A DNA stretch of 64,000 nt from Adineta vaga. Lineage: Eukaryota; Animalia; Rotifera. The notes beneath the pieces are model-generated. The model made no database searches and was not told the DNA's origin. It saw only the letters and a program-made list of their open reading frames with translations. The DNA is taken from positions 12,214,001 to 12,278,000 of the forward strand of contig CP075493.1 of NCBI GenBank assembly GCA_021613535.1. The letters run 5' to 3'. Below, piece by piece: positions 1 through 42,956 of this stretch. Position 1 is the first letter of the stretch; every line of letters starts with the position of its first letter. The position numbers and the translations under genes were made by a program.

Positions 1-2976
1 ATGACCAATTGTATGTAATGTATGAATTAATGATGGATCATTTGATTCACATAAATCATGTCGAATAGCCAATGCTTTTTCATATAAACCTAAAGCTTCA
101 TTACCATGTCCTAATGCCATATGTACCTTAGCAACATTACTAATATATGTTGCTTCGGTTAATGGATCGTATGATTCTAATTTACTTAAAGCATCTAAAG
201 CTTTTTCATAGAATTTTAAACTATCTTTAAATTCACGTTGTTTGTATAATGTACTTGCAACATTAGCATTACTAGCTGGAATATTTTGATAATGATTCGT
301 TGTACCTAATTGATCAAGAACACGTTTGAAAAACTCTAATAAAGTTAATTGAATTTGATCTGTTTCTTTTTTTAATTGTTTATCTTTTTCACTAACAGAA
401 ACTAAACGAACGTTCCAAATACCTTCGTTTGTTTTCTTTTCTGCTACATCAACGATTCGAAATATCGTTCCAATTGAAAAGAGTACTTCACGTTCCTCTT
501 CATATTTACTCCAACGTGATATATCAGCAAATGGACGTTCCATTTGATCAGCATCAATTTCCATATAAAACACAAGTGATTCCGTTTTTGGAGGTTTTCT
601 ATCTAAAGCAAATCTTCTTGCTACGTGTTCATCTAAACTTGTTGAAAGAAAACTATTGAATGCAATTAATTTATCCACTTGAATTGTCATTTTGAATTCA
701 TCCATAGTCATAGTTAATCCACGATGAACAGTAAAAAATCGTGATGCTAATGATGGTTTATATAAACTATGCATTTGTTCCAATTGTACATGTAAATCTT
801 TGATAAAGAAATGAAATTTATATAAGATGGCTATATCTTGTTTCCAAAGAGCTTCATTCAATTTTTTGAATAGAATTGTCTGTCGAGTATACCTAAAGAA
901 TGTATTGTTAGAAAATAGAAATCGTTGAAAGTTTATCGTACCATGATATAGCTTTTCCAGCATGATACTTTGTTTTTAATTCATCAACAATCTTGAGATC
1001 GTTTTGTTCTAATACATAGGTTTTCTCAAAATATTCAGCCAGTTCGATTTTTGCGTTGTTGTTATATTCCATTGTAAAGAGAAGATCACGATGTAATTGT
1101 GAACAGAGAAATTCGACTTGATTTTTAATATCATCGGAACCTTCCGATGTTGTAGAAATAGGAAGAAGATTTTTCAATGCTTGTTTCGTATCTTCTTTTA
1201 AACGTTCACATAATGGATCAATTGTGACAAAAATTCCACGTATTTTATTCGATTGGTTCATCAATTCTGTATATTTTCCTTCATCGTTACAAAATATATA
1301 GATCGAATTTAATTTCGAACATTCGATGATTTCTTTGGTCAATAGAAGTTCGCGAGCAAATTTACCAGAGACAATTAGATAGATTTCTTGATCTTGAATT
1401 TGTTGAATAATATTTGTCGCTTCTATAATTTCACGACAAGTAACTAAAGAATTGACAATAGTACGAAGATTTTGTACAGAATCAGCAGTTTCTTGATTCT
1501 TATTGATTGTTTCATCCAACCAAATTAGAACAAAACTTTCGTTTGTACTGATTATTGTCGACATTGGAACTGATATGGGTCCTGTATATGGCATTGAAGC
1601 TCTTAGTGCTCGATTGGCTTCTTCTACTCAAGACAAATCCATCCACAGAATGTTTGTTATTTTAATTCGATATAGAAAGATCAGTTACCTGTTGAATCAG
1701 AAGTAATCAGAGGTTTGGTCGACTCGTTTGATTGGGAATTCTTTGTCGATGTCTTTAATTGTGGTACGAATAATTTTAAATATTCAAACAATAATTTTTG
1801 CATTTCCACCGAAGCTGTTGCAGAAATTTTTGCTAAAAATCAAATGTACAAATCGTATACTCTTTTGTTTTTAAAATGAATTTTTATACTTTTATTATCT
1901 TCATTCATGATTTTCGTATTTACAGATGAATCAATTGGTTCTAATTCAGCTATAACATCTTTCGATGTCTATATATATAGAATGAAAATATAAAATCAGA
2001 GAAAAGAAATGTTGATTTCTACTTTGATATTTTCCGTTGGTTGTTCATCCTAAAAAGAATTCAATAAGAAACATATTTATCTTTATTAGTTTATCAGGTA
2101 TACTTGTGGATTAATTCCTCCTTTCGTATTCATTTCTTCATCTTGTTTAGGCATTGCCTAAATGATAATTTATGTTATAATTCTTAAATAATTTCGAATT
2201 AATTATACTTGAGGATTGTTCGAATTCATGATTGAATCATATTTCATAGGTCCAGTATTTGGTACTTCAATCTGTTTGTCTTTTGTTACATTCGTTATTG
2301 CATTCATTATCGTAGGTAGATCATCAGAACTCAAAATGATGTCATTTGTTTCTTCATAGTGAGTTTCATTTGAGAAAAAATTCATTAATTGAAGAGAATG
2401 ACAACTAAATCATATATAAATCAAGAAAGTCTAATCATTTGATAAAGAACAATCATACGTTTGACATGGTATTCCTCCTGTAATCGATTGTAATTGACAT
2501 GTACTTCGTCTTGTATGAAAATGTGCTTGATTAACAAATCCATATTCACAACAGACGGATACATGTTGATCGAGAATTCCATTGATATAGATTGTTATAT
2601 CAAAATGGCGATTCACTAGACGAGATGATTTAAAAGTAAATTTATCTAGAAGAATAAAAAAATTTGATGAGAATGACGATCAATCGATGGATGAGAATAC
2701 CATTTGGTTTTAAACAGCCTTTAAAAACAGATTTAGTGCCAGTTGAAGTGTGAGATTGAAGGATTAGAATTTCGTCAGTATGAATTTTAAATGTATAGGT
2801 ACCATTGAAATTTATCATGGATGGGCCAAGATACAGCATTGCTATAGCAGTACATGGAACATTGACCGGTGAGTTTCTCGTAGATCGAACAACATCTAGA
2901 AGTCTATAAAAGAATATTGTAAGGTATTCACGACATTGTTTTGTACTTACGGTTGATTTGCTGTTGTAGACATCAT
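1..2976 (-). CDS. Paralogue A: DUF4590-like + receiver-like + arginine-type ADP-ribosyltransferase + TPR protein (3' end runs off the window)
   Basis: In-frame splicing from ATG 2976 through introns at about 2904-2950, 2646-2700, 2405-2458, 2158-2208, 2050-2103, 1969-2022, 1833-1889, 1624-1688 and 893-941 joins ORFs 2642-2839, 2431-2616, 2203-2385 and 908-1594 to an open frame at 1-892. DUF4590-like segment: AMLYLG..DEILILQ..VFKGCL..FTFKSSR..YING..SVCCEY..PCQTC. ART segment: WYTRQTILFKKLNEAL..TVHRG..SFLSTSLD..EEEREVLF. TPRs follow (YEKALAIR). Confidence 0.85.
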
Positions 2977-3057
2977 TGGTGAATGAATTTATCTGAAAAA
3001 AGAAGAGAAATATGAAAAAAGGAAAACTAATGTCAATCAGTCGTTTTTTAGTTTGTA

Positions 3058-6000
3058 TTAGACAGATAAAACTTGTTTAAGCCATTGTTTTTGTCGAGCA
3101 ATTTCCAATTGTGCCTGATTTTCTTTTAATTCTGGATGATTTTCTGAGATTGTCTTTAAATATTCCACAGATTTCTCTGCGCATTTAACCGCCTCATCAT
3201 ACTCATTCAATTGTGCATAAGCAGTCGACAAATTATAATACGTAACCGATAATGGATGTGGCAATGGATTTGGTAATTGTAATTGAAGTTCTAATGTTTT
3301 CTTATAATAATTCAATGCTTCTTTTGCTTCTCCTCTTTGCCAATAGCAACTTGAAATTCGTTGAAGAAGTGAAATTAATGCTTTTATATTATCTTCTTCC
3401 ATAGACATTTGTTCTCGAATAGTCACTGCTCGTTTGAGATGTTTTATAGCTTCTATATATTTCTTTTCATCGACATAAACAGCGCCGATATTTGTTGAAT
3501 ATACAGCTATTGAATCCATATCAGGACTCGATGATTTCAATTGACATTGAAGTGCCATTTGATGAAATTCTATTGCATTTTCATTTTGATCATCTTGAAA
3601 GAACATACTTCCAATATTATTATAACTTGATGATAACATTGAACTGAATGGTGAAACAATGATTTGAAATGCGCGTATAGATTTAAAGAATTGATAACGT
3701 GCTCCTTCATTATCTTTCTGTTTTACATTAATATTTCCTAATTGATGATGAGCTGCTGCTAAACTTGCTAATAATGTTCCATCTTCGTTGAAAGATTTAT
3801 CTTGATAAATGGACTCTGTTAGATAATCACATTCCCAATAATGATTTGTCTCAAGGAGAAGTTTACTCATTTGTAGAATAACAACCGGTGCTTCGATTTC
3901 TTTACGTAACGAACTAGTTAATTGTTGAAAATGAGTGTCATTAGGTGGAATAGATTCTAAGTTTATTATATGAGTATCATTTTCGTTTGTATCAATGGAA
4001 ATAATACGAAAGATCACATCGAGATTAATCAATATGTCAATTTGATGATTGGATTCGATTTTAGCTGCACAATTCGGTCCAAGACGGATTGAAAAGAGAA
4101 GAGACTTTTCAGAATCTTTATCAAAACATTTGACAGATCTTGCCGGAAGAAATGAACGAAATATAACTAATCCATTGATATTCTCTCGAAAATTTTCAAT
4201 CATTCCTTGTTCAAAATTTAACATTACATAGACAGTAATTGATTCTTTGATAGATATAGTTTGAATTTGTTTATGAAGTGATTGAATAAAATAGCGCATT
4301 TTAAATAGAAGATCAATTTCGTGTGTACGAAATGCACGTGATAGCATTTTTGATAAAAAACTATAACGTGTATACCATCGAATACAATCTGAATCAATAA
4401 ATGAATTTTCAAATAGATCAATTTGATTGAGTTCTTCGGAATTGTCGACGTAATGAAGACGACAAAATGTTAACATATCCTTCTTTAAATCACTTTCATC
4501 ATCTTGACAAAGAAGTGTTTCTTTCAATAATTGACTGTAAGTAAATGATAGATCAGCAGTTGTATTATCTTTTGATGTAATTTCAAAAGGAATCATTCGA
4601 AAAGATGCATAAGGAAGGGTGTTAATTAAATGATCGCGTAATGAATCAATAGTTTGATAGATTCCAATAGTTTTATTGGAAATATCAATTGATTGAGTTT
4701 GTTTTGATAGTATATAAATGAATTGATAGTTTTGAAATTGAGGAAGAATTGTTGAAGGTTGATCAGAAGAGATTACAACAATGAGTTTTTCATCTGTAAT
4801 TGTTGTTAGCAATGTTTTTAATGTATTTAAATCATTTGTTTTACGAATAAAATTAACTACAGGACGAAGTTGATTGAGATCTTCGTTTTCCTTTAGATTG
4901 ATATGAAGAATTGTAAAATTTTCAACATTACCAATGCATCGAGGTGGAATTGTTTGACTTGATTTAGGTTTCGATAGAGCTTTAAAAAAGATAATATTAA
5001 AGAAGGATTATTCGATAAGAAGTATACCTTCTTGCATGCATTCAGTGACAAATTTAAGTACAGCGGATCCGTCATCGACTAATTTATCTTTCGAAGGTAT
5101 AGGTTTGACAATGAGTTCAACTTCTGGTTTTGAAGTTAATGGCTTTTCTGTGTGTGTTGGTTTTACTTGAGGTTGTTCGACATTTTTGACAGATTTCTCC
5201 GATACTTGAATAGAACCAATAAAGATTTCTTTCGTATCATTTTCAAATTTCAATACTTACCAACAGATTGATCTTCTTCCGTATCACTTTCTTCGCTATC
5301 CTAAAATTTACAACATTGAATTAAACTTCAAGTTCGCATAAAAGCAATCTTACCGAAGGAGGAACCGCTAGATTTTCTTCATCGGTCGATGTTGATAATA
5401 CATCAATGCTCTCAAGACATCTAAAAGATATTTACATCAAATTTACTTTCGATATATGTTCTTATACAACTTGCTTTGCACATGAAGTGTATTGTTCAAT
5501 ACTTCTGATCCAAAATGAACTATCACCGTCATCAATTCGACCTCCACGATGAAGCGGATGTTCACAACATGCTGAAATTGTTGTGTCAAGCGAACCATTA
5601 ATTTCCATTTTGAGATGAAAACGATCATCGATTGAACGTTGAGATTTAAAGGTAAACGCATCTGAAGTCTTAAGAAAACCTTTAAACACAATCCAAGTTA
5701 AACCGTTCTTTGTCAATTGAAAAATTGTTATTTCATCACGTCTTGTATTATGTAGAATGGAAGGTAAAGTTGGATCAGATCGATAACACATCGTTATTTG
5801 ACAAAAACATGGATTATCCAAATGTTTTGGTCCAATCAAAATATTCTATAACTCGTATTCATGAAGAAATATTCTCATGCAAATGGTCTCTGTCTAACCT
5901 GTGGAGGCGGAGGATGAACGAATTCCACTCGCTAATAAAAAAACAATAATTGAAAAACAAATCTATATTCGATGATAATATTTCAATGAAAATGACTTAC

Positions 6001-6342
6001 ACGAAGTGAAACATCGGATACAAGTTGAGAAGGATTAGAATCTATCATTTCTCTAGGCATGGAGAATAAAAATATACGAAATAAATACAAAGCTAATCAT
6101 TTACCCGTTATTTTCTATTTGTTGAGTAAAGTCTTGTAAAGATGTACTTGTTAATGGGCTCAATAATTCTACTGAACGAGTCTTCTGACGTGATGATTTC
6201 GATAGTGAACGTTGCATTGGTGCAATTTGTTCGAACTGAAATTACATTTGATTCAGAAATAGAGATGATTTTTTATTACTATTTGATTTACCGATGATCG
6301 TGGAGTAATTGGTTGTCGTCGAGATGATCTAACTGGATTCAT
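3058..6342 (-). CDS. Paralogue B: DUF4590-like + receiver-like + degenerate ART fold + TPR protein
   Basis: ATG 6342. Small exons splice in frame into ORF 5462-5839 (CQITMCY..DEITIFQ..VFKGFL..FTFKSQR..ISACCEH..SCAK|C). Introns at 5421-5474 (GC-AG), 5301-5353, 5205-5260 and 4980-5027 then lead into the 584-aa ORF 3058-4812 (WYTRYSFLSKML; TPRs such as YNNIGSMF and YYNLSTAY). Confidence 0.85.
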
Positions 6343-6428
6343 TATTTCTCTTATTAATTAATCTAAAAGCAATGAACATAGTTTTCAGAATGACAAATAA
6401 AAAGATCATTAGAAAAAAATGAGAGAGT

Positions 6429-9400
6429 CTATTGTTGATCAAATAAATTTTTCATCCAAAGTTTTTTTTCGATATATTCAAGATATTTTCTTTGCATTTG
6501 AATTTCTTCATTATCTTCTTTCTTAGTTAAAAGTAAACGTTGAATCGCTTGTTCAACTGCATCTTTAGCTTCTTGTAATCGGCCAAGTTTTTCCAAAGCC
6601 GTAGCCATATTGAAATAACTAGTTGCCACTGTTGGATTATCAGCCGTATGACATTTAAGTTCAATTTGAAGGCATTTTTCATAATTATTCAATGCTTCAG
6701 AGTATAGATGTGCACGATATTGTGCACCGGCAAGATTAAAATATTTAACAGCTACTTCCGGATGCTTCAAATTTGGATGAAGTTTTTGTTTAATTTGTAA
6801 TTCAATTTCAAGATAAGGAATTGCTTCTTTATATTGACCAAGTTTACTAAGAATTGATGCAATATTTCCTGCATACGATGAAACAGAATCCATATCAGGT
6901 TCTGATGAATTTTTTTGCATTTCATAGGCTTTTTTATGATATTCTAACGCTCGTTCATGTTGACCTAGTTTATGATAAATGCTTCCAATATTATTATATG
7001 TTGGCGATAGTTTAACATGATCAGCAGGTAGAAAACGTATATAAGTTTTTAACGAATTTTGTAAATGATCTAATGCTTGTTCATAATGTTTTCTTTCATA
7101 ATGATGTGTTCCTAACGAATGAAGTATACCACCAAGAGTTATATTTGCCGATTGATCATTAATCACTTGTGGATCATCGATTAATAATGAACAGAAATAT
7201 TCCATATAGCCTGTTGATTTTCGATGTTTCATTAATTGTAACATTGATACTAATGGAATTGATGAATTAATTGAATCATTTATATCTTTTGTCATTAATT
7301 CTCCAGCTTTAAGAATATCATTATTCGTTGTTAGTTTAACATGAAACGTATCCTCATCGATGGGTTCAATTTTATCAATACGAAATAGAGTTCCGAAAGT
7401 AAGAAGGATTTCATCTGGCTTGGTCGGATGATTACATCGAACTATACCAGATCCTAATGAAATTTCGAAATGAAGTAATTTCCAATCTTTATTTATTGGT
7501 GGAGGTTGAATTTTTGTTAAATTTCTTTCAAGTAAAACAAATTCATTAAAGGATAATAATCCACCAGGATTGTTTTTCATATTATCATAATGTTCCTTTT
7601 GAACTCGAAGTGTTCGATAGACCATCAATGGACTTGTATCATTCGTTGATTTTAATTGATTATGAAGGTGTTGAATAAAATATCGAAGTTTATATAAAAT
7701 ATCTGGATCGAATGCTCGCAATGCTCGTGTAAGCATTTTATATAGAAATGTTTCTTCTCGTAAATACCATTGAATTGCTTCATGTACTTGAAAATTCTTT
7801 TCGAATTCATCAATAAATCGTAATTGAAGATCATTCTCTGCATATTCTTCACGACAAAAATTGATCATGTCTCTTTTGGAATCTTGTGTACCATCAGTTT
7901 GTAACAGAATATTTTTCAAAGCTTGAACATAAGTCAATGTTCTCAATCCACTTTGATTTGCTGGCATGGAATTGAACGATGTTAAATGATACATTAGAAA
8001 TGGAAGATCATTTTCCAATTGTTTACAAAGATCGGCAATATTATGGAAAGCTCCTCGATAAAAATTTGAATCAGATGAAATAGTTTTCGTTGCATCAATC
8101 ACATAGATTCCACACAGATAAGGTTCTTCTCGAATAGGTTTGGAGAGATTTTCCATGCTAGTTTTTGAGAGTATTAATATAATCTTTTCTTTGGTAATTT
8201 TCTTAAGAAAATCAATCGATTCTTGAGAATTTATATCATCGAAAGTATAACCTAAATTGATCAAACCACGTAATGTTTGTTGTTCATCAGTAGATATCGA
8301 AATTTGACTTTCGATTATGTAGCAAAAGTTTTCTACACTCTTTTGATGACGTGTTCCTGTGGAGCTGTTGCCTAAATTATGTAAGCAAAAAACGAATGAT
8401 CGTAATGAAAATAAAACGTAGAATCTAATAAAAACAACCTGCTAAAAACATTTGTAAAATTTGCTGAATATCGAAATTACTCGTGTCGATTGTGATAGTG
8501 TTACTATCATCTGCATCTTCTGTAGCATCATTTGGTTTTTCTTCTATACAAGATAATTTAGTTGTCAAATTTATCGTTGAAAAAGCTATCGTTTTTACCG
8601 GATGGTTTTTCTGCTTCTGAAGGATTTGTAGGGGCCGTTGTTGTTTCTAAATAAAGATATATGTTTATAATGAACGATCTTTTTGTCTATACAAACCTGT
8701 CTGATGATGATGATGATTAGAAGATACGTCTTGTTTTTGTGGTTTCGATTTCTTAGCTTTCGAAGACTGTATTACGGAAAACAGTACGATAAAAGTAAGT
8801 AATAATGATTACTCAATTACCTTTTTATCTTGTTGATGTTTATCAGACGATGTAGGAAGATGCGTGGGAGGTTGAAAATAATTTGTAGCAGGTTTTTTAT
8901 TTCTCTTAAATAATGTAATTCAATCTGAAGATTTGATTGATAGAATAAAAGGATCAGACTTACAGGAACTAATAATGTATTTTTTTCATTATTTTGTAAA
9001 AATTTCTCGGCATTTTCTTTTCGACATCTAAAATCATAAAGAGAACTTTTATTCGATATTCGAAAAAAGTGATGGTATTACTTTTCACACGGATTTGCTT
9101 TTTTGATTTCTTTAAAATGGAATCGTTTCTGTTCGTCGATATTTAAATGTGCAGGAACGCATTTAAATTCGCAACATTCCTTGATTGTGCTCGCGAGCGT
9201 TCCTTCAGCATAGAAAGCTAATGACAGACTGGAGGTTGGTCGTCGTTGTGATTTAAATGTAAATGTTTCTAGAAAAGCAATGACAATTTTTTATTCCTTG
9301 TATCTATATTGATCACTATTATTACCTCCTTTCGTTAAATATCCTCGATAGACCATTGAAGTTTCACCAGAACTATATTGTTGTATGACAATAATCTCTT

Positions 9401-10010
9401 CACGATCGGATGCTGTTGTCGATACATATGACATTGTAATCTCACAAGCGATACGTTCTTCCATAGGATCATTATACTAGAATGACAAGTATGGAAATTT
9501 AATGTAGAAAAAGTAGGATATACAGTATGAATTTGAACATTCTGCTGATCAACTTCGAATTGATTTTGATTTGTTTGTGTGGAACTAGTTTCTGTTGGTC
9601 GTTCATCATTATTTCGAGTAAGAGGACGTTTGACCGAACTTCTCAATCGACGATTACGATTGGGATTGATTGTTCTAAAATCTCATATTTACGAATGACA
9701 AAAAAAAACCTCTTTCAAAGAAAAGTTACCTTGATGAAAGATCATGTACTGTTATTCTTTGTTCTCGCAGTTGATTAACTCGTGTTGATTGAATTCTAGG
9801 AGTAGACTAAATGAAAGACGAGAATTTTATGAAGAAAAAGAAGCATTGATTTTTACCCAAGGAGCAGATGGTGACTGTGGTTGTACAAATGGAGAATTGA
9901 TCAATCGCGGATTTAACCATTCTCTCAAGGGTCTGTGAATGAACAGATTATTGTTTTTGCTATTTCAATTCGAATAGAACGTACCTTGTTTCAGATCGAT
10001 CAACCATCAT
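6429..10010 (-). CDS. Paralogue C: DUF4590-like + receiver-like + degenerate ART fold + TPR protein
   Basis: ATG 10010. Exons at about 9325-9476 and 9082-9268 give ACEITMSY..EEIIVIQQ..VYRGYL..ETFTFKSQRR..LAFYAEG..ECCEFK..PCEK|C. Five small exons (introns at about 9028-9081, 8905-8963, 8767-8820, 8647-8696, 8543-8598, 8372-8438) link in frame to the 611-aa ORF 6429-8264 with TPRs (YNNIGSIY, YFNLAGAQ). Confidence 0.85.
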
Positions 10011-10799
10011 GAAACGAATTTAAAAAAGCGTTCTAGTTTTAAATTTCTACTGAAAAAATTTAAAAAACAGTTTTGTGATCAGAACAGACAAGACATTTTT
10101 CTTTTCTCTTTTCAGAGAATGAGAAAAAATGGCATGGAGACCATTTGATATTTTACTTTCTTTTTTTTCTGCATATTGCATTTTTTGAAGTTACAGTTTT
10201 TTCGGAGAAAAGAAAAGAAATGTATTAATCTGAATTTCTTGCTCTTATGGAAGCTAGCTTACAATCGCATACTCAGTTCTTGTACTTACAAGTATTAAAC
10301 TATATAATTTAAGTGGCGACAGTTATGTTGAAAACTGAAAATACATAGTATTTTTGACGTCTCAACAGTGTTGGTAGTATATTAGTTAGAAAATCACGTT
10401 TTTTTTAATGAATTTTAGCAGATGTACTTCTATTCTTGTATATATTTTTTTTCCAGAGATTGTAAAGAGTTTATTGACTAATTCTGCATTAAATGATGAA
10501 TAACTAAAGAAAAGCAAGCATTGATCGGTTCATGTAAATAACATCACTAGAGATGTAACCCAGTCAACGGAGTTACCGTCGACAGAAAAAGGAAAGTTCA
10601 AAAATTCCAACCACACTGCCGCCGGTTCACACTAGTAGACTTTTTTTTGAAGGAATTTTCGCACACGACATCAATTTTCATAAATATGACTGTAATCTTC
10701 ATAAGAGATTATATATTATAAATAGTCACACTCATGATAACTACGATGCGTCATTCATTTATTTGATCATTATAATTCCCACGGAAAAATATTTAAGTA

Positions 10800-12640
10800 G
10801 ATACCGCCGTTAGACGCGGTTATTTGCTTGAAGACAGCGATGGGTTGAAAAAGACGCAATTAACTGCGGTAAGTTACATCGACATTAAGACGCACCGCGA
10901 TATACTTGAATGAAACCGCAGTGTATGCACCATAGAAAACCGAGATTTTGGAAAAACACGGTATGCTGGCAACTATTTGCGGTATCAGAGAACCTCCATC
11001 TTTTACGGTATTTTTATTCGCGAAATCTCTATTAGAAACCGCGGTCTGTATATTATATCGAATAGTACCATTAATTGAATCAGTTTATTTTCAAAACATG
11101 ACTGGACTTTCTAACGTTATTTTTCTAATAAGATTATATCAACAAAGCTTATTACTTAAAAGTCACAGTATGATATAAAAACCTTTTCTCATCGATTAAA
11201 ACTAAATTTATCATCATCCTACAACATAGAAAGTTGGAAAAAACTACGTTATAAAAAATAACGATTTGACGATTCGCAACGTATAATAAACTTTTTTTTC
11301 TGTTTTTTGAAGTGATTCATAAATCCAGAAGGGATTTAATCTTCTTCAAATACAATAAAAACGGAGTTCCTTATACGGTGAAAATTCATAAATCTTTTTT
11401 TACGTTTATGAGACCATATCATAAACGCTTTTATTGTTGGCTATTCCCCACTTTTTTACAGTACAGATATATGTGATTTTTAAATGAAAATAGAGTATTT
11501 TTATTAAATGGCAACAAATGATAATATTTTAATTAATTTTTCAATTTAGATGGTAATACAGTACAACTAAAATTAGAACAGTTAGAATTTAAAAAGGTGA
11601 AGCTACAAAGAAAATAAACCAGATCAATATGAAATGTAAATAGACATTAACTATACCTAGGGATTTAGCAGATTTTTAGAAAATATGGGTATATAGAATA
11701 CGTTATAGCCACAGTTAATTCAGATGATTACTTCTGATAGTATTAACAAGCTTGTAGATTATTCAGATACAGAAAAATACATAAACTTGTTTTGTTAGTC
11801 AATAAAATCGAGATCTTATAAATTTCTTAATAACTTAGATGCGTTTTAGTATTAAGATTTACATATATTTACTGAATTTCAATACTATGCTCGATATTTA
11901 GACTTTTCAGTACCGCACAAAAACCGCGGTTGAATATCTACAAATTCTGATAAATCCCTATGTCATGGCCTTCAGCCATAATAACTCATAAGTCAAGGAA
12001 TCCATGAGTCATGTACATGTGGCTAGGTATGGTGTTTTATCACAATAAAGTATGTTTATATACCAATGGTCATATTATAGAGGATAAATGTGATTCTACA
12101 GATCATATACAAAGTATACTGTTAATAAAGTTACTCGAGGAAATCTAACAAAGTTTTAGAGATATCATAAATTAATGAGAAATATTTATGAAATTATTAA
12201 TATTTTACTCGTATATGATATCTATATTTTTATATGAAACAATTTTTCATTACAAATCAGATGGATTATTATATCTGATCTTAATATAAACATCACCACA
12301 TGGTTCAATGGAATTAGTGAACGCCAATCACATGGTAATAAGTTTGAATCTAACAAGAAGTAGATAAATAGATAATAGATAATACTACTATAAGAGTCGA
12401 CCGCGGTATGAGACCAACGTGTCGAGATCGTAGACCAGTGGCGAACATGGAAAATCAAGGATTACCGGACAGATGGTAGAAATAAAATACCACTAAATTG
12501 AATTAGAATTTTCTCGAAAACCGCGAAGAACCGCGGTTTGTAGCGGTTTTAAAAAACCTAATAAAAGGTCTGACTTTTGCGATTCATAATAACCATTTCA
12601 AACCTTCAACTTACAAACCGTCAAAAACCGTGGTATCACT
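10800..12640. repeat. Dispersed ACCGCGG-like motif clusters; possible non-autonomous DNA transposon relic
   Basis: About 12 copies of (A)ACCGC(G/A)G / CGCGGT in both orientations, clustered at 10800-11050 and 11900-12640 in otherwise CpG-poor, gene-free DNA. No clean TIR or TSD was found. Confidence 0.3.
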
Positions 12641-13158: not shown

Positions 13159-14709
13159 ATGATTACTAACGATAGGAATGATAAAATCAAGGATGATGGC
13201 GATACTCTATTCGCTTTCAATACGTATGAAGAATTTAAGAATGAACGAGTGAAAATAAATTATGAAAATACACTTCAATTATGGTATTCTCTACCATCTG
13301 GATTGCCCAAGATTGATAATCAACGAATCAAAGAATATTCATCTCGACAGCAACGTATGCGTATGGGAAAAGTTTCAGCATTTGCTGTCTATTGTGCTTT
13401 ATTCAAACGAACACCTCTTAGAAAAAGAATTAGTTCGAAAGGTAAGAATAAAAGTATTTAGAAAAACATAAAGAAAACTATTAGATCGAGTGTATGAGTA
13501 TATAGAAAGAGAAAGTAATGAATTTCATTTCAAATATTTTAGGTTCTCGTTTGTGGCATGAAACATTGAATCTTTCTTCGTCACAAGATAAATCTCTCTT
13601 TGAATTTTATCAATCATTGAATCGTACTACAACAGAATTTCTTAATAAAGCTGAACGTTATGATCCAAAAATCAATAATGATGAGCTATTCAAAGCAAAT
13701 CGTTTAGTCTGGTGGATGGCTGCTTATCAACTTCAACAAAATGTACCGTTAGTGTTTTCTGATTCAATGTTTGGTTATAATATGCTCTATCCTTATACTG
13801 ATGATTTAGTCGACTCGAATGATGTACCCAGAGAAGCAAAGATAGATTTTGCACATATATTCCATAAACGATTACTTATTGGCGAATCAAATTATGATCC
13901 AAAATCTCATTTCAATGGTCAACAATCGAATGTGAACGAATTGGAATTACCACCTTCGCTTAAACCATTTGCAGATCGTATAGGAAAAATTTTCGATATG
14001 GTGAAATTTATTGAAAATGATTGGATACGTGATGATGAACATAATGGAGTTTATATGGGTTTAGCAACTATTCATGAATGTCAAATGCTTTCGACATTGC
14101 AACATGCACGACCTAAAGATGATTATGCCCCGACAATGGCAAAAATTGAAGAAATTAGCGCTCTAAAAGGAGGTGCATCAATAATTGCCGCTGGTTTTCT
14201 CATCGAAGGAAAATTAACACGAACAGAAATGGCTTATTTAGAATATGTTGGTTTTGGTCTACAATTACTCGATGACCTACAGGTAGACTCAGTCATATTA
14301 TGATATATTTAATTTCTTTTGTTTTCATGTAAAGGATGTAGAAGAAGATATGAAGAATAATCATCGAACAATATTTACTCAATCGATTGTTGAACGGCAA
14401 ACACTCGATGCTCCTACCGCTCGTCTCATTCAATTTTTATATAATCCACCGGCTAATCTCAAATTTTTGGACAATTCTCATTCTGAATCAAAGACAGGAA
14501 ATTATACAGATTTATTTCAATATATCCATGATTCAATGACAGTGTTTGGCGTAATGCTCATTTTAGAAGCTGCCTGTCATTTATCACAATATTATTCAAC
14601 GGGCTTTTATCGTGAATTATCCATGCGTTGTCCAGTGAGATTTAAAAGGATGAAAAGGGCACATATTGAAAAACGTATGTGGTCTGTGTTTCGACGAAAT
14701 TGGTTTTAA
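13159..14709 (+). CDS. Class I isoprenoid-synthase-fold enzyme (prenyltransferase/terpene synthase-like), bacterial type; 5' end uncertain
   Basis: Three ORFs join through introns 13442-13542 and 14283-14334. Asp-rich motifs YPYTDDLVD and GLQLLDDLQ|DVEED, plus LKGGAS. Confidence 0.75.
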
Positions 14710-20206: not shown

Positions 20207-20527
20207 TACAATTGAAAGTGAAATAAAGAACGAACATAAATGATATTACTTGCAGAAAGGTAACAATCCAATATTAAATGATATTCGACAGAGGGCATTG
20301 AATGTCAGTACTACAATACATAATTTATCTCAAGCATATCGAAAACAATATCACTTCACTTTTGCTCGTTTCAGAAGATCTATCATCGTATTTACACAGT
20401 AATATATACTGTCCATTTTGTTTACGAACTGTCATTATGACGAAATGACGACAGCAAACACATGTGATTCATTTCAACCTATATAAAGCACAGAGCAGAA
20501 AAACAAATATTCGACGTTTCATGATAT

Positions 20528-21739
20528 ATGGAGAATAGAGAAAGTTCTGTAGGTGATATAAATTCGAATGCTGGGACAACAACTACTCAAAAAACTAACA
20601 GTTCAGGCGAATCTTATGACGAACAACTATTAAAGCGTTGTAGAAACATTCATTTTGATGTTGAATTTTGGTATGAAATTCTTCGAAATCAAACATTTCC
20701 TACTGAATTCATTTCAATTTCTTCATCACTTGCGCAAGCATTTGTAAATTTTTACCAAACACGTTTTATGTCAAAAACTTCCTTAACTCTCAATGATATT
20801 CAACTAATTCAATCAATACAACATCAATTGAAAGAACAAATCTTCAATTCCAAAACTTTTCAATTTATTCGTTTAAGTGCACGAAGTCCTAAAGATGGAA
20901 AACCATTAGATTCGAAAAAGATTCATCAATTTTATCAACAAAAATTACATGAATTACAAGTTCAATATCCCGATGAATATCAATCAATTAAAGGCAAAGC
21001 AAATATACAAACTATGGCGTTTTATTATGCACAATTTCATTCTTTAAAAGTAACGGATGAAATTCAAGCTTTAAATCTAATTCTAACTAGTGAACGAATC
21101 TATTATGATTTAATTGAAATACTCGATTGTCAACAAGTGAAAGAGAATCAGATTGAAAATATAAATCATATCAAAGTATTCGATTGGAATAATCATATGA
21201 TCATTCGTGAATGGAATGATGACTTAGATCCTTCGATGGAATTTCGTTGTTTTGTTTATCAATCAAATCTAACTGCGATATCACAATATAATTATTATTG
21301 TAAATATTATCATTTACAAAATCAAGAAAATATTCAACAAATTAAAACAACCATAAGAAATTATTGGCGAGAGACACTTCAACCATTGTTGAATCCATTT
21401 TCTGACCGATATTCGAATTATATTATTGATATTGGATTAATTGAAAATAAATTAAATCATCAATATGATTGTATTGTTATTGAAATGAATCCATTTGAAA
21501 GAACAACAAATCCAAGTTTATTCGATTGGATGAAAGATGATGATCAATTGAAAGGAAATGGAAATGAAGTAGAAATACGTGTACAAATGGATTATTATCC
21601 ATATATTGAAGATTATATTGAATTTCTTCTTGAAGTAAATGAATGTAATGGAGAAAATCAAACGTCATCTGATCATCCTGGTAGAAAACCATATTTTGTC
21701 TTCTTAGAACAAATGAAAACTCAACTTTCTATTGAATAA
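20528..21739 (+). CDS. Cdc123/D123-like ATP-grasp protein (divergent, non-canonical)
   Basis: Motifs FIRLSARSPKD, MEFRCFV, AISQY, YIIDIG, IEMNPF, SLFDW. Intronless, 403 aa. Confidence 0.8.
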   Translation: MENRESSVGDINSNAGTTTTQKTNSSGESYDEQLLKRCRNIHFDVEFWYEILRNQTFPTEFISISSSLAQAFVNFYQTRFMSKTSLTLNDIQLIQSIQHQLKEQIFNSKTFQFIRLSARSPKDGKPLDSKKIHQFYQQKLHELQVQYPDEYQSIKGKANIQTMAFYYAQFHSLKVTDEIQALNLILTSERIYYDLIEILDCQQVKENQIENINHIKVFDWNNHMIIREWNDDLDPSMEFRCFVYQSNLTAISQYNYYCKYYHLQNQENIQQIKTTIRNYWRETLQPLLNPFSDRYSNYIIDIGLIENKLNHQYDCIVIEMNPFERTTNPSLFDWMKDDDQLKGNGNEVEIRVQMDYYPYIEDYIEFLLEVNECNGENQTSSDHPGRKPYFVFLEQMKTQLSIE

Positions 21740-23588: not shown

Positions 23589-24040
23589 TTAAGCACCAGG
23601 CCACGTTCCTAGCACCATACACCAATAAATAACGTTATTTTCATCTTTAGCAATACCTATTCCTATATTGCGAAAATTGCCATTGAGAATGTTTTCTCGA
23701 TGGCCTTGACTGTGCATCCATCCATTCATTACACTCGAAGCCGATGTCTGTCCAGTAGCCACATTTTCACCAATCGTAGTCCAACTGTAACGTGCTCTAT
23801 GAGCACGTTCACCGACCGTTTTATGACCGTGGATATTTTCTTCATGACTCATATGTTTAGTTTTTGCCATATAATTGGCATGGTTTTGTGCTGCACGATG
23901 TAATCTCAAATGGTACGATAAAGATGGCGCACGATGTGAATGACGATGGTGATTACATAAACTGACAATTTCTAAAAATTATTGAATGCACTGGTATTGA
24001 AAATAATTTTTCTGAATGATACTATACCTCTTCGTGTCAT
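23589..24040 (-). CDS. CAP/SCP domain protein, bacterial YkwD-like
   Basis: ATG 24040 (MTRR), intron at about 23972-24027, then EIVSLCNHHR..AAQNHANYM..GENVATGQ..WMHSQGHRENIL..IGIG..YWCMVLG. No signal peptide. Confidence 0.85.
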
Positions 24041-27659: not shown

Positions 27660-29710
27660 TTAACAATGTAACAGAACACCAACATTATTTGAACCAGAAT
27701 TTGCAACAATAATATCAGGTTTGCCATCGCTGTCTATGTCGCTAACTGCAATTGAAGATGGTTGAGAACCAACTGAATAATTCATTTGAGTAAGAAATAC
27801 ACCATTGCCTATATTTAAGAGTATGGTTATGCTGTTTGAACCTTGATTTCCCACGATTATATCAGGTTTGTCATCGCTGTCTATGTCGCTAACTACAATA
27901 GAAGATGGTTGCATGCCAACTGAATAAGTCATTTGAGTAAGGAATGCACCGGTACCCGAATTAAGAAGCACACTAATAGTGTTTGCACCTTGGTTTGCGG
28001 TGATTATATCAGATTTGCTGTCATTGTTTACATCAACAGCTACAACTGAAGATGGTGGAAAACCAACTGAATAAGATATTTGAGCAAGAAATGTGTCATT
28101 ATTTGCGTTGCGAAGAATACCAATATTATTCGAACCATAATTTGCAACAATGATATCAGTTTTATTATCATTGTCTACATCGCTAACTGCAACTGAAGAT
28201 GGTAGAGCACTAACTGGATAACTCGTTGAAACAGGAAATGAACCACTACCATCATTAAGGAGAACATCAATGCTGGCCTGATATTTATTTGCTACAATAA
28301 TATCAGGTTTGAGATCACCATTCACATCAGAAACTATCACGGAGGACGGACCGAAGCCAACGGCATGATTACTTGCAAAAGCAAATGTACCATTACCAAG
28401 ATTCATATAAATTCTGACATCTGGACTACTAGTTACCACAACAATATCTGGTTTGCCATCATTGTTTACATCACCCACGGTAATTGACGCTAGACTACCA
28501 GTGACTAAAAAACTAGTTTCAGAATAAAATGTAGTATTGCCGGCATTGAGAAGTACATCGATAGTGTTCGAACCAGAATTTGCGACAATAATATCGGGTT
28601 TATCGTCATCATTTACATCGGTTACTACAATTGAGATCGGACGATTACCGGTTGTATAATTAGTCCAGTAAAAAAACAGTTGGTTAGTACAAACTAGAAG
28701 AAAAAAAACATTCTTTGTTTGTGTGATTAAGCATTGTTAGAATTTATCAATGTATTTTGAACGTTTTATCACTTCTATGTACGATGTCAACGAATATTTC
28801 AGACAAGTGAAGTTTGATATATTGTCAATATACTTTATAATGAGAATAAGAAAGGTCAGAAACACCTTAATAACCTCGCAATTATATTACTAAGAGATAT
28901 TCTTGATCTTACTCTCAGTAATGTGCCAACTTATTATCAAAGAAAATATTCGCATTCATTCATTGTTGTGTTAGATAGATATTTTTGATGAAAAAACTGG
29001 AAGCAAATATCTAACAAAATACTTACCATTAGTGGTTGTTGTTGTTGATGACGTTGATGTTGTTTTACTTGTGGTGGACGTCGATGAGGATGCGTTGATG
29101 AGGATGATGACGTTGACGACGAGGTTGACGATGAGGATGAGGTAGTTTTAGTGGTGGTGGTGGTTGACGATGATGATGTTGATGACGAGGTTGACGATGA
29201 TGATGTTGATGACGAGGTTGACGATGATGATGAGGTAGTTACAGTGGTGGAGGTGGTTGACAATGATGATGTTGATGTATCAGTGGTGATGAATGTTGGT
29301 GGTATAGTTGACAATGTTTGAACTATAAAATGGAGATGATATAATAGAATTGTATTAGGGAGATAATTCATTGATTTATACAGCCACATGTACTCTTACT
29401 TACTATTTGTTTGATTATTAGTGATTGATACTAATGATTGGTTGAAAAAAATTAATATAGAATACAACTCATATTTTAGTTCAATTGTATTTATATATGA
29501 ATATAATATTTGACAACTTTGATTTGTTGAAAAATAATTCAGAGCACAAATCGTTGCATTTAGCCTTAACATTTGACATGTACATTGATCTATTGTTACA
29601 TTTACCAATGTCTTATTGATATTACCTATCATCATATAATTCTCTGCTTTACCAATATTAATACAATCAACAGTAGAGAACAATAATAAAATAACAGTCA
29701 TCCGCAACAT
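27660..29710 (-). pseudogene. Secreted apple/PAN-like + Ser/Thr linker + FG-GAP/VCBS repeat protein with a 1-bp frameshift
   Basis: Signal peptide and Cys-containing N-domain (29401-29710), S/T-rich exon (about 29027-29321), and an exon at 27660-28694 with seven D(V/I)xxDxKxDII repeats. The linker changes frame at about 29092 (ACG-CA-TCC versus the repeat unit ACG-TCA-TCC). Confidence 0.75.
29030..29290 (-). repeat. Coding low-complexity (TCA/ACA/TCG)n Ser/Thr repeat
   Basis: Repeated GATGATGATGTTGATGACGAGGTTGAC units on the + strand. Confidence 0.8.
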
Positions 29711-34240: not shown

Positions 34241-36571
34241 ATGTGGTCGACTTTCGTTAGGGTGCTTTTTTCTATTCTGATATGTAGTAATTTATCGTTA
34301 TCACGAGCCATCTTAGCGTCAACTATTCCAGATACTGAATATGAACAAGTCATTGCTGAACGTTATCTATTTGCTCCTTTGCAAATGAGTCGACAGCTTG
34401 GATGGTTCTTGATGATGTTTATAATATTTGGCAAGCTGTTTCATTGCCAAAGTATCATTCTCAAGCTTCTGAAGGAGTTTGGTTACTTGGTTAATTAAAT
34501 AATGTATTACAGATGTTTTTGATGTCTTTATCTGCCAATGGTACTTTGGTAACTGTCAATGATGTTACTATTAATAGTAATACCAGTCGCCTGATTGTTT
34601 CTCACACAAGAAATACTTCTATGACATATGTAGCAGCTCTTATTTCATTGAATCGTATAGAATTAATTTCGTGCAATCTATCCGATGCTACCTCTTGTAA
34701 TGTTGCACAAATCATTTATTTTCCTTCTGTTTTGATGAACATATCCAAAATTATAGACGGCTTGTTTATCGAAGATTTAGGAGTAGCAGGTTGGTTATAT
34801 ATTGCTACTGATACTGGACTACATGGATTGAACCTTCATACATTTACAATTGCTCCTTTTCTCAATGCAATCGACGTGACTGTTTCATCATTAGTACGAA
34901 GTTCCAAACGACAAACAGTTTTTATTGGCACAGAAACTAAACTGTGGATATATTCGTATGGTATTGGTAAGCAAGGATGGCGTTTCGAACATATTGATGC
35001 ATTGATTGATGCACCAATTACATCTTTGGTATTCAACGATGCACAAGATCAGTTATGGATAGGACAAGCTACGGGAATAACATTGCTCTCACCAATTGTC
35101 ATGTCGACAGGTAGTATTCGCTGGTACTTTACGAGACTAGCAGGTCAAATCTCAAATCCAGGCTCTTATATTGGTCATCTTCCATTTGCTAATATAACGG
35201 TTATGGATGTAAGTCATTCGATTCTATCTGACAATCGAGTTTGGTTAGGCAGCATCTATGGTGTGATGCGTTTCAGTCCTAATGATACGGATTTGAATAC
35301 TTGGCGTGTGTTTAATAGTGCTAGGTATATGCCAAATCGCAACGCTTTAGTTAGTGTTACTTGATTGGCGGTGTTGAGTCGACCGAGAAATGCATCTGCA
35401 GCTTTAGGAAGTGCTGCTGTGGCAGTAACCAATAAAGGTCTTAGTGTTCTTCGTTTTGAAATGTGGACATTATCACAAAAAGCAGAACATTTTCAAGCTT
35501 TTTTCGAACAACCAGGTAGACATAGCAAATATAATCTTGTTTCTAACTGTTCAATGTCATTGTGGGGTGACAGTCGTTCATGCGTCAAAGGACCAGATGA
35601 CAATGATGGTCTTTGGACATCTATGTATCTGAGCAGTCAAATCTTTCGTTATATGGTCACGAAAGATGTAATGGTCAAATCATTGGCTTGGACACATTTC
35701 GAAGCATTGGAATTGCTCAATAGAGTCGCAGGTAGTTAACAGACTGAAATATAATTATTTACAGATTCAATTTGCCTTTTATTTTATCTTTCACAGGTAT
35801 TCCTGGCTATCCCAGTCGTTCATTCGCCAAACGCACTGATTTTCCTCCTGCTGATGATTGGTATCTATCTCCTGCTAATTCAACCCTTCAATTTAAAAGG
35901 GATACTTCTTCATCCGACAAAATTGTTGGACACGAATTTGTTTATACACTATAGTACATGATTTGTTAGCTGGTAATGATGATGAACAACAAAGAGCTTA
36001 TATATTAATCTTAAATATCACAACTCATATTCTTACCCATGACTGGTATCTGATAGGTGAAAACCGTACCCATACTACGTGGGGCATTTGGAATCCGATA
36101 CATGTAAATAATGATAGTGATTTTCAAGATGACCGAGGTCTTAACACTCTAGAAATATTAACTTATTTACTTCAAACCTATGCATACAATGGTGATGAGC
36201 GTTTTCTCAATGGTGCTAAATTATTGATTGAAACGTATCAATACAATATCAATCTTATTAATATGAAAGCAATTGCTGTTTGTGATGATAATTTTTCGGA
36301 TGATGAACTCATTTATTTATCCTATTTCAATCTTGTTTATGCCATTAATACAATTAAATAGTTATCGATAGGATATTCAACGTAATGTACCATCTGAATG
36401 TGATCAGCAACATCATTCATTACAGTTATTACCTTCTGATGAGCGACCTTTAGAAAAGTGGAATTGTGGTGTCTATAATTTAGATGATGGTGACGGATTT
36501 TACGAAGAAGATCCAACTGCTTTCTTGATTAGTTATTGGGGGATGCGTTTCTTTAATCTATTAGGCGAATA
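34241..36571 (+). pseudogene. Secreted beta-propeller + helical-domain protein of an uncharacterised bacterial-type family, multiply disrupted
   Basis: Signal peptide; motifs DNDGLWTSMYL, RDTSSS/DKIVGH, TTWGIWNP, DRGLN, SDDEL, LPSDERPLEKWN, FLISYWGMRF. Stops at 35362, 35952 and 36359, frameshifts near 34400 and 35905, introns at about 34481-34513 and 35732-35797. Confidence 0.7.
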
Positions 36572-41090: not shown

Positions 41091-42956
41091 ATGTCAGAGT
41101 GTTCAACTTTCATTCCACATGCATTTAAATAAACCAAATGCCGTGAATGTGGTCAGACAGAAGATAAACATTCTGAAGTAGAAAATTTAATAAAATTCGA
41201 CGATCCTTTACCAAATGATGACTCAGCGCCGAAAGTTATTATGCGCGGTAATGTTACATTGAGTCGATCTTCCATTCATCGAAATACAATCGACCAAGGG
41301 AATAAACGCCCTCCAACCAATTTCATTAGACAAAGATCTATTTCATCCGATAGAAAATCACTAACGCAACAAATACCAAACCAGTTTGATTCGAAATATT
41401 CTAGAAGAGATACAATACATTTTATGCAATATTCCCAAACATCTGGATTTGAAGCGAAACAAACATATAATGCTCAGAAACCTGAATATCAGAATGTGTT
41501 TAATTCAGAAAAACGACCATGCCGATATGGTTCGAAATGTTATAGGAAAAATCCTGGACATTTCCAGTATTACTCACATCCTCAAGAGCAAAATAGAAGT
41601 TTTGAATCATTAGAAGAAGGCTTAGAAAAACAATTGGAACTTGTTGAAAAACAATTTATTGCATGAATAGCAGATTTAAAAAATAAAAATGTATATTATG
41701 AACAAGAAATTGAAAAGCTACGTCAAGAGAAAGTTCAAATGGCACGATATCATCAACAGCTAGAAAAGGCATTAGCTGTTGCAACGGATGAACGAGAACG
41801 TTGTGAGATAGAAAAGAAACGAATTTTATCCATTCCACGTGATACACCAAGCTATTGGGGTATCAATGCATTTGAAGAACCGTTTCGTGAAATAGATATT
41901 CGTCATGAATCACCTAAATTTAGAATTATTGATGATTTGTTTAATAGTACAATTGCAAATCATGGTAATAGATTTGGAACTATTTATGGAAAAGATCCAA
42001 CTAAATTCATTGTTACAAAGATTACTCGAATTCATAATGATAAACTTTGGCATGAATATTGTTTCAAAAAAGTATGTTTTATTTCATTTAAATAAGGAGA
42101 GAGATCATCTATAGGGACTAAAAATTGTTTTAAAGATAATCAATCTTTCTTTGAATGTGATAAATTTATCGAATTAATGTCATCTATAGAAATTGAGAGA
42201 ACTTTTCATGGAGTTTAGCGCATGTTAAAAAGCAATTTTAGATTCCATTTTGATTGTATTATTGAATGCCAATTTTCATTTAAGGATAATATTAGAAATA
42301 AAACAAACCATCGTCTAATGGAATTTGAAAGCTCAAGATATTTTCAAGATCATCCGCTTTTAACACCATTATTAGACGCATCTGTTAATGAATACTGGTT
42401 ATTTCATGGTTGTGATAAAGATATATTGCCTATTTTAGTACGTCAAGGCTATGATCCTCGAGTTTCAAGTGTAATGGGAATGTTTGGAGGTGGATTTTAT
42501 TTAGCTGAAAATTCAAGCAAATCAAATCAATATATACCATGTCCTGGTTGCCGAAAAAATGCTATATTCTATGGAGAAGGATGTAGTTGTGGAGATGAAG
42601 AAGAGATCGAATTATCAATGCTTCTTTATCGTGTATCATTAGGCGATGTACATATAGCTAAAATCTATGAGAAGACAATTTATCGTGGACAAGAAAAAAG
42701 TCCAATTCGTCGACCACCAATGAAAGAAAATTCTCTCGGTTTATATGATTCAGTTATGGGCGAATCAAAGACACATGGTGGAAATGCATTACAATATCGC
42801 GAATTTATTTTATATGAAACTGGTCAAGCATATCCGGAATATATTATACGATTTAAAAGGTCTGCGATGAACGCATTTCCCTCTTCTGATACGACGAAAT
42901 TGTTCAATAAATGTCGAATGTTTCTTCAAAATACATTTAATTCAAAAAAAGAATAA
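41091..42956 (+). pseudogene. Zinc-finger + PBZ + coiled-coil + tankyrase-like PARP catalytic domain; two in-frame nonsense codons
   Basis: One frame from ATG 41091 is interrupted by TAA 41130 and TGA 41664. PBZ CRYGSKCYRKNPGHFQYYSH; intron at about 42072-42284; PARP triad WLFHG, GFYLAENSSKSNQY, YREF. Confidence 0.8.

What the first reader, a model, noticed from the sequence alone, without database searches (positions are those of the whole stretch)
480..7630. One catalytically intact ART and two pseudo-ARTs in the same cluster
Seen in sequence: paralogue A has the full arginine-ART signature (VHRG, FLSTS, EEEREVL). At the same positions B reads VYVML / FLPARS / HQIDIL and C reads VYRTL / FVLLE / KPDEIL. 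Both B and C nonetheless keep long uninterrupted frames. Established: R-S-ExE is required for cholera-toxin-type ART catalysis. Inference: this is an enzyme plus two maintained pseudo-enzymes, perhaps a heteromeric complex or an executor/sensor arrangement analogous to paired immune receptors.
Basis: partly seen in the sequence, partly recalled or inferred. Interest (0 to 1): 0.7.

Follow-up and report, generated by a model that had tools for sequence, protein, structure and literature searches.

The report
Rotifer ADP-ribosyltransferase with two disabled siblings
In bdelloid rotifers three neighbouring, expressed and conserved genes each join a domain known from a human cilium protein to a toxin-like ADP-ribosyltransferase fold; one keeps the catalytic residues and two have lost some or all of them, so they likely act as one enzyme with two non-catalytic partners made from a likely shared transcript.

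Summary
The motifs are there as described. The window is Adineta vaga; A, B and C are head-to-tail genes built alike: DUF4590 (the ERICH3 ciliary-protein domain), linker, receiver-like fold, R-S-E-type ART fold, TPRs. A keeps R-S-E in 8 of 8 homologues. B lacks the arginine in 40 of 40 and has Asp for the catalytic Glu in 38. C is only half-degenerate: Arg 35 of 36, Glu 30 of 36, Ser 1 of 36. Predicted structures of B and C keep the ART fold (Z about 12). All three are spliced and under purifying selection (ART omega 0.15-0.2), so they are not decaying. The C-B-A order holds in Adineta, Rotaria and an old duplicate of the triad. New here: gaps under 100 nt with a splice acceptor at 10 of 11 junctions suggest a trans-spliced operon. 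About 90% of the wider family keeps R-S-E. A physical complex was not tested (tool unavailable). The paired-immune-receptor analogy gets little support; a cilium-linked enzyme plus pseudoenzyme module is likelier. No description was found in ten literature searches.

The parts
1..2976 (-). Gene A (1011 aa; runs off the window's left end at residue 830): DUF4590, linker, receiver-like, ART with R-S-E, TPR
   Evidence: P0176 100% identical; Pfam; spliced joints; start codon read
388..964 (-). A: ART domain with Arg 723-721, Ser 645-643, Glu-x-Glu 495-487; intron 893-941
   Evidence: PF01129 residues 526-701; hit to Vis toxin structure E 0.011; intron in RNA-like contigs
1175..1540 (-). A: receiver-like (CheY/flavodoxin-like) domain without the phospho-acceptor Asp
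   Evidence: alignment with B and C models; A itself was not folded
2460..2782 (-). A: DUF4590 (approximate, over two exons)
   Evidence: PF15257 61.3 bits; mapping
2977..3057 (-). B-to-A spacer: T-rich tract and splice acceptor AG at 2994-2993, 16 nt before A's ATG; likely trans-splice site
   Evidence: no read-level proof
3058..6342 (-). Gene B (I4U23_003986, 947 aa): DUF4590, linker, receiver-like, pseudo-ART, TPR
   Evidence: P0001; 7 introns in RNA-like contigs
3946..4404 (-). B: ART fold without Arg, Ser and Glu (Val, Pro, Asp)
   Evidence: model pLDDT 92; Z 12.9 Tre1, 12.1 ART2.2, 11.2 VIP2; counts
4600..4923 (-). B: receiver-like domain
   Evidence: Z 11.4, rmsd 2.2, 107 aligned to 4xlt
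3061..3804 (-). B: TPR region (approximate)
5474..5746 (-). B: DUF4590 (main exon)
   Evidence: PF15257 49 bits
6343..6428 (-). C-to-B spacer: C's poly(A)-like end at 6362 abuts a splice acceptor AG at 6364-6363, 20 nt before B's ATG; a 9-nt non-genomic 5' end on a B contig at 6364
   Evidence: one contig each in runs X5 and X9 (table 7)
6429..10010 (-). Gene C (I4U23_003987, 993 aa): DUF4590, linker, receiver-like, degenerate ART, TPR
   Evidence: P0121; 9 introns shown in a 2904-nt contig; start codon read
7311..7796 (-). C: ART fold with Arg and catalytic Glu kept, S-T-S and first Glu lost, loop before the Glu shorter
   Evidence: model pLDDT 90; Z 12.2 Tre1, 11.3 VIP2, 10.3 ART2.2
7995..8333 (-). 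C: receiver-like/flavodoxin-like domain
   Evidence: Z 9.0 to 4xlt, tied with dehydrogenase domains
6537..7127 (-). C: TPR region (approximate)
9010..9420 (-). C: DUF4590 (approximate, over three exons)
   Evidence: PF15257 76.1 bits

Best explanation
A, B and C are old tandem duplicates of one DUF4590-receiver-like-ART-TPR gene, kept in order and under purifying selection across bdelloid rotifers; A is likely an active intracellular mono-ADP-ribosyltransferase, B and probably C are likely non-catalytic partners, and the three are likely made from one trans-spliced operon and would act together at cilia. Shown: architecture, motif states, ART fold in models of B and C, splicing, selection, conserved order, short spacers with splice acceptors. 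Inferred: A's activity (about 0.85), B inactive (0.9), C inactive as a protein ART (0.65), operon (0.75), same pathway or structure (0.55), direct binding (0.3), ciliary site (0.5). Proposed working: DUF4590 would place each protein on the same ciliary or basal-body structure, the TPRs would bind clients, A would transfer ADP-ribose from NAD+, and the B and C folds would serve as scaffold or allosteric regulator; C, with Arg and Glu kept, may still bind NAD+.
For: Motif counts: A 8 of 8 R-S-E; B Arg 0 of 40, Glu-to-Asp 38 of 40; C copy 1 Arg 35, Ser 1, Glu 30 of 36. Wider family intact in 125 of 137 and 108 of 122, so loss is lineage-specific. Folds. Selection: ART omega 0.158 (A, 4 sequences), 0.202 (B, 8), 0.146 (C, 3), each p<1e-17 against 1; B within each triad copy 0.18 and 0.23. 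Order: neighbouring accessions on one contig in A. steineri, A. ricciae, R. magnacalcarata and C-B-A in metagenome loci. Spliced RNA-like contigs for all three; TPM about 1-2 for each in PMC12220480 Table S2 (ids mapped by neighbour order). Acceptor plus ATG at 10 of 11 junctions against 3-6% of shuffles; poly(A)-like end and non-genomic 5' end meet at 6362-6364. DUF4590 is the domain of ciliary ERICH3 and among proteins fetched up to occurs only in the A/B/B'/C groups. B+B'+C form a clade (SH-aLRT 98); A with them is not rejected (p-AU 0.61).
Against: No activity, binding or localisation data exist for any of the three. A. vaga keeps a B-like gene (I4U23_017378) and a C-like gene (I4U23_030198) on two other chromosomes, and no A-like neighbour for them turned up, so the degenerate genes do not need to sit beside A. 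Over half of bdelloid transcripts are trans-spliced, so operon-like packing may be common and may keep neighbours together without a shared function; no genome-wide control was possible. The acceptor pattern was chosen after seeing the data, and the two RNA ends rest on one contig each. That DUF4590 itself targets cilia is not shown in the passages of PMC6848114 that I read. Synonymous sites are near saturation (pS 0.36-0.73), so omega values are rough. C's catalytic Glu is kept in 39 of 47 rows, more than expected of a dead site but not invariant.
Confidence: 0.45

Rival explanations
1. Independent paralogues: B and C work on their own as DUF4590-TPR adaptors, the ART fold is kept only as a structural spacer, and the order persists because the genes share an operon promoter.
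For: ART omega is higher than TPR omega in all three genes (0.15-0.20 against 0.07-0.08). Conserved positions in B and C ART domains are mostly the helical lobe and core. B' and the second C copy persist away from A. Trans-splicing is common in bdelloids.
Against: A's own ART domain has the same omega as B's and C's. The Glu-to-Asp change in B is fixed in 38 of 40 rows and C's Arg in 45 of 47, which suggests constraint at the old active site. The order survived in both copies of the duplicated triad.
Confidence: 0.3
2. C (and the B' paralogue) are atypical active enzymes or NAD+/ADP-ribose sensors with a changed target; only B is a true pseudoenzyme.
For: C keeps Arg 35 and Glu 30 of 36; B' keeps Arg 18 and Glu 19 of 21. 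The fold is intact. Human ART4 (G-S-E) and ART3 (K-L-V) show that triad variants exist (table rows).
Against: Ser of S-T-S lost in 35 of 36; the Glu is replaced by Gly, Ala, Asp or Arg in 6 of 36; the stretch before the Glu, which holds the target-recognition (ARTT) loop, is 19 residues against 27-28; the first Glu/Gln that recognises the target is absent.
Confidence: 0.15
3. Paired immune receptors: B and C are decoy sensors for pathogen effectors and A is the executor.
For: Toxin-type ART fold with TPRs in a very large rotifer family; tight linkage; pseudo-domains are used as decoys in plant and animal immunity (own knowledge).
Against: Same order across genera and low omega in every domain; shared ciliary-protein domain; low, similar expression. 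No arginine-ART GO term among up-regulated sets after fungal challenge in PMC11258130 file 1, which is weak because these genes could not be traced in that study's ids. No site-wise test for positive selection was run.
Confidence: 0.1

Closest known systems
R-S-E (cholera-toxin-like, ARTC) ADP-ribosyltransferases: ART2.2, VIP2, Tre1, Vis, C3
   Same: Fold of B and C models (Z 10-13); A's R, S-T-S, E-x-E and PF01129 hit.
   Different: Embedded between a receiver-like domain and TPRs; I saw no obvious signal peptide or GPI tail in the sequences (no predictor run), unlike vertebrate ecto-ARTs; B and C lack triad residues.
Human ART3 (K-L-V) and ART4 (G-S-E), deviant ARTC paralogues; LRRC9 and PARP13 pseudo-ARTs
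   Same: Conserved ART-fold proteins with an incomplete active site beside active relatives (PMC7955679 passages and table).
   Different: ART3/ART4 are extracellular single-domain proteins; LRRC9 and PARP13 are PARP-type. None is described there as co-transcribed with an active sibling.
Bdelloid receiver-like-ART-TPR family (UniRef labels 'NAD(P)(+)--arginine ADP-ribosyltransferase')
   Same: Same three-domain core; A is 26-35% identical to many members; Atlas clusters are eukaryotic, mostly Rotifera.
   Different: About 90% keep R-S-E and none of the background proteins tested carries DUF4590. Known only as automatic labels in my searches.
ERICH3 (C1orf173)
   Same: DUF4590, its only annotated domain; ciliary protein.
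   Different: ERICH3 has no ART or TPR; A. vaga has a separate ERICH3-like gene (FUN_001963).
Spliced-leader operons of Ciona, Oikopleura, C. elegans, chaetognaths
   Same: Same-strand genes under about 100 nt apart; in Ciona the poly(A) site and acceptor typically abut (median 1 bp), as at 6362-6364 here.
   Different: I found no description of operons in bdelloids; polycistronic RNA is not shown here.

Membership tests
R-S-E (ARTC) ADP-ribosyltransferase, gene A | Arg, Ser (S-T-S) and catalytic Glu | tested here: met
   8 of 8 homologues
R-S-E (ARTC) ADP-ribosyltransferase, gene A | ART profile or fold | tested here: met
   PF01129 36.9 bits over cut-off 22.3; A was not folded
R-S-E (ARTC) ADP-ribosyltransferase, gene A | E-x-E for arginine specificity | tested here: inconclusive
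   E-x-E in 6, Q-x-E in 2 of 8; the two Q rows belong to the second triad copy
R-S-E (ARTC) ADP-ribosyltransferase, gene A | NAD+-dependent transfer activity | not testable with these tools
   needs an assay
R-S-E (ARTC) ADP-ribosyltransferase, gene B | ART fold | tested here: met
   Z 12.9, rmsd 3.0, 164 aligned to 6drh
R-S-E (ARTC) ADP-ribosyltransferase, gene B | Arg, Ser, Glu triad | tested here: not met
   Arg 0, Ser 9, Glu 0 of 40
R-S-E (ARTC) ADP-ribosyltransferase, gene C | ART fold | tested here: met
   Z 12.2, rmsd 2.8, 161 aligned to 6drh
R-S-E (ARTC) ADP-ribosyltransferase, gene C | Arg, Ser, Glu triad | tested here: not met
   Arg 35, Ser 1, Glu 30 of 36: two of three kept
Pseudoenzyme (B, C) | Expressed, intact frame, purifying selection on the domain | tested here: met
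Pseudoenzyme (B, C) | No catalytic activity | not testable with these tools
   needs an assay
Two-component receiver domain | CheY-like fold | tested here: met
   Z 11.4 (B), Z 9.0 (C)
Two-component receiver domain | Phospho-acceptor Asp at the end of strand 3 | tested here: not met
   mostly Ser in that column in A, B, C and background (column placed by my reading of the model's strands)
Spliced-leader operon | Same strand, short spacer, acceptor before downstream ATG | tested here: met
   10 of 11 junctions, shuffles 3-6%
Spliced-leader operon | Leader on downstream mRNAs | tested here: inconclusive
   one contig with a 9-nt non-genomic end at B's acceptor; its match to the bdelloid leader is from recall, the source paper is not held
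Spliced-leader operon | One promoter, polycistronic precursor | not testable with these tools
   only assembled contigs were available
Paired sensor/executor immune receptors | Physical pair in which the sensor controls the executor | not tested

The most novel reading that the evidence does not exclude
An operon-encoded, cilium-anchored heteromer of one toxin-derived ADP-ribosyltransferase and two pseudo-transferases: an intracellular R-S-E ADP-ribosylation switch on animal ciliary proteins, controlled by its own disabled duplicates, and a conserved operon in bdelloid rotifers.
Probability: 0.2. Interest if true: 0.78.

Novelty: new variant of a known kind. Interest (0 to 1): 0.52.

Why it matters
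Animal R-S-E ADP-ribosyltransferases are known mainly as cell-surface enzymes. Bdelloids carry a large, apparently intracellular and unstudied family; this triad is a stable, low-copy branch of it, tied to a ciliary-protein domain of unknown function. It gives a matched enzyme/half-degenerate/fully degenerate series for testing what pseudo-ARTs do, a handle on DUF4590, and a concrete candidate for operons in a trans-splicing phylum where I found none described.

Tried and rejected
No whole genome was held, so A. vaga paralogues were not counted exhaustively. Complex prediction of A with B and C was not available: no verdict. Pseudogene or neutral decay rejected. 'Degenerate ARTs are the norm in this family' rejected. 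DUF4590 found no solved relative (best E 0.71, chance). The profile search of PDB with the A alignment returned only TPR proteins in its top 60. FUN ids do not equal I4U23 numbers; mapping was by neighbour order. Supplements of PMC10809525 (one file held) and 12 of 16 files of PMC11258130 held no usable row for these genes; unread or cut files may hold desiccation, radiation or infection data. No run was on record as RNA; RNA status rests on GT-AG joints. Earlier scan findings: none. Ten paper searches found no description of this triad or of bdelloid ART-TPR proteins; the library lacks most subscription journals.
Full report
Setting. The B frame matches Adineta vaga I4U23_003986 at 100%, C matches I4U23_003987 and A a 1011-residue protein on the same 18.1-Mb contig. 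The genes lie head-to-tail on the minus strand in the order C, B, A. Each has DUF4590 (51-76 bits, cut-off 27), a low-complexity linker, a core of about 350 residues and TPRs; only A passes Pfam ART. A-B, A-C and B-C are 23-28% identical in the core and TPRs, so the duplications are old.

Observation. Counting over homologues (40 of 40 B rows, 44 of 45 C rows, 21 of 21 B' rows, 8 of 8 A rows and 138 of 152 background rows aligned): A has Arg, Ser and catalytic Glu in 8 of 8 (one row is a near-copy from the same 90% cluster); the first Glu is Gln in two. B has no Arg in 40, Pro for Ser in 29, Asp for Glu in 38. Split by copy, C copy 1 has Arg 35, Ser 1, Glu 30 of 36, and copy 2 Arg 10, Ser 3, Glu 9 of 11. 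So B has lost the triad and C only part of it. The stretch from strand 3 to the Glu has median length 27 in A, 28 in background, 23 in B and 19 in C; it holds the loop that recognises the target in R-S-E enzymes (PMC7827354 passages).

Is degeneration ordinary here? Background proteins keep R-S-E in 125 of 137 complete rows, a set partly found with A and so biased. A profile built mostly from the degenerate groups returned 141 new representatives, 122 with the domain, 108 intact. Degenerate groups are thus a minority: B, B', C and one more clade without DUF4590 (P0165-P0175 in part).

Fold. AlphaFold2 models of the receiver-plus-ART part reach pLDDT 90 (C) and 92 (B). Both match R-S-E ARTs: C Z 12.2 to Tre1, 11.3 VIP2, 10.3 ART2.2 (Foldseek E down to 2e-7); B Z 12.9, 11.2, 12.1. 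The first domain is receiver-like (Z 11.4 for B; 9.0 for C, tied with dehydrogenase domains) without the phospho-acceptor Asp. A was not folded; its best PDB sequence hit is Vis, E 0.011.

Maintenance. Contigs of runs guessed to be RNA show GT-AG joints for A and C (one study) and seven for B (two studies). In Table S2 of PMC12220480, neighbour order identifies FUN_001502 as C, 001503+001504 as B and 001505 as A; ground TPMs are 1.0-2.1 for all; in spaceflight C and A fell slightly (log2 -0.44, FDR 0.002; -0.30, FDR 0.04), B not significantly. Codon models on the window plus metagenome loci (3 of the loci for A, 7 for B, 2 for C, chosen as non-redundant among 24) give ART omega 0.158, 0.202 and 0.146, all far below 1; B is 0.18 and 0.23 within each copy. 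Synonymous sites are near saturation, and the first sets mix the two copies.

Order and history. Consecutive or near-consecutive accessions on one contig place A, B, C together in A. steineri, A. ricciae and R. magnacalcarata. Of 24 metagenome loci, 11 show B beside A, C or both in the same order (L001-L005, L007-L009, L012, L017, L018; several are the same organism); the other B loci are too short and the rest are other family members. Trees show a second copy of the whole triad (L001, L007-9), likely from the old bdelloid genome duplication (recalled, not tested). B+B'+C form a clade (98), so the S-T-S loss may have happened once; adding A is not rejected. Against strict pairing, A. vaga keeps B' on a 15.2-Mb contig and the second C on a 13.9-Mb contig, and no second A or B from A. 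vaga appeared in searches that scored only part of the candidates.

Operon-like packing. C's stop and B's start are 86 nt apart, B's stop and A's start 81 nt. At 10 of 11 junctions in the window and six loci, a T-rich tract and a splice acceptor lie 35-97 nt after the stop with an ATG 0-23 nt later; shuffles give 3-6% (pattern chosen after inspection; the eleventh has an acceptor at 139 without a near ATG). One contig of C ends in a poly(A)-like tail at 6362 and one contig of B begins with nine non-genomic letters at the acceptor at 6364; from recall these fit the end of the bdelloid spliced leader. Bdelloids trans-splice over half of their transcripts (PMC1925144 passages; PMC4824033), and abutting poly(A) and acceptor sites are typical of Ciona operons (PMC7986045 passages). 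This supports co-transcription but also offers a function-free reason for conserved order.

Mechanism. DUF4590 is the one annotated domain of ERICH3, a ciliary protein (PMC6848114, two passages; the only paper with the term). Among proteins fetched up to it occurs only in A, B, B' and C groups and carries conserved cysteines that may bind zinc (inference). A. vaga also fuses it to DUF563, a glycosyltransferase-annotated domain, which fits a targeting module for modifying enzymes. I therefore favour a cilium-linked module: A modifies, B and C scaffold or regulate (0.45). Rivals: independent adaptors held by an operon (0.3), C as an atypical enzyme or NAD+ sensor (0.15), immune pair (0.1). The complex itself could not be modelled.

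Literature seen. Passages only: PMC3417536 (eukaryotic mono-ARTs recruited from toxins; nothing on rotifers), PMC7955679, PMC12220480 (44, plus supplement rows 50-54, file cut), PMC7827354, PMC9503650 (82, nothing relevant), PMC1925144, PMC12460157, PMC4824033, PMC7986045, PMC6848114. Supplement searches only: PMC10809525, PMC11258130. PMID 15788744 not held.

Verdict. Real, conserved and apparently undescribed; a new variant of known themes (enzyme with pseudoenzyme paralogues, spliced-leader operon). Interest 0.52.

Noticed in passing
A. vaga FUN_003622 and FUN_003626 (PMC12220480 Table S2): DUF4590 is also fused to DUF563 (PF04577, glycosyltransferase GO term) in two nearby genes: a second modifying enzyme on the same module.
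   Followed up: no
P0165, P0166, P0168, P0169, P0171-P0175: A further conserved pseudo-ART-TPR clade without DUF4590: Arg kept, S-T-S changed, Gly at the Glu position.
   Followed up: partly
P0039-P0056, P0059-P0061; A. vaga I4U23_017378: B' paralogue keeps Arg and Glu and has an invariant Cys in the middle of the S-T-S position (21 of 21); some records are auto-labelled arginine ARTs.
   Followed up: partly
L001:7167-9314, L008:13577-15565: A of the second triad copy has Q-x-E instead of E-x-E, which may mean a different target residue; L008 also lacks the 49-nt-type intron, as does L002.
   Followed up: partly
P0016 and P0340 (A. ricciae, contig 310774): Two B copies on one contig, hinting at a local extra duplication.
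   Followed up: no
window 13506-14709 (+): Gene with an aspartate-rich motif like terpene or prenyl synthases and bacterial best hits (FUN_001501); possible horizontal acquisition.
   Followed up: no
window 42219-42956 (+): A PARP-type catalytic domain gene (FUN_001492) lies 32 kb from the triad.
   Followed up: no
window 20525-21739, 23589-23978, 27660-28736, 34495-36361, 48165-48650, 61747-62943: Dense set of foreign-looking genes (D123, CAP, VCBS repeats, propeller protein, HAD, phospholipase-C-like); several flagged HGT.
   Followed up: no
window 10780-11060 and 11900-12630: Non-coding stretch with many short CCGCGG-centred motifs, perhaps a decayed transposon end; no repeat search was run.
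   Followed up: no
L019:700-1900 and 4530-5319: B' is followed by an agmatine-deiminase-like frame (my reading, not searched) and then a protein with repeated receiver-like domains.
   Followed up: no
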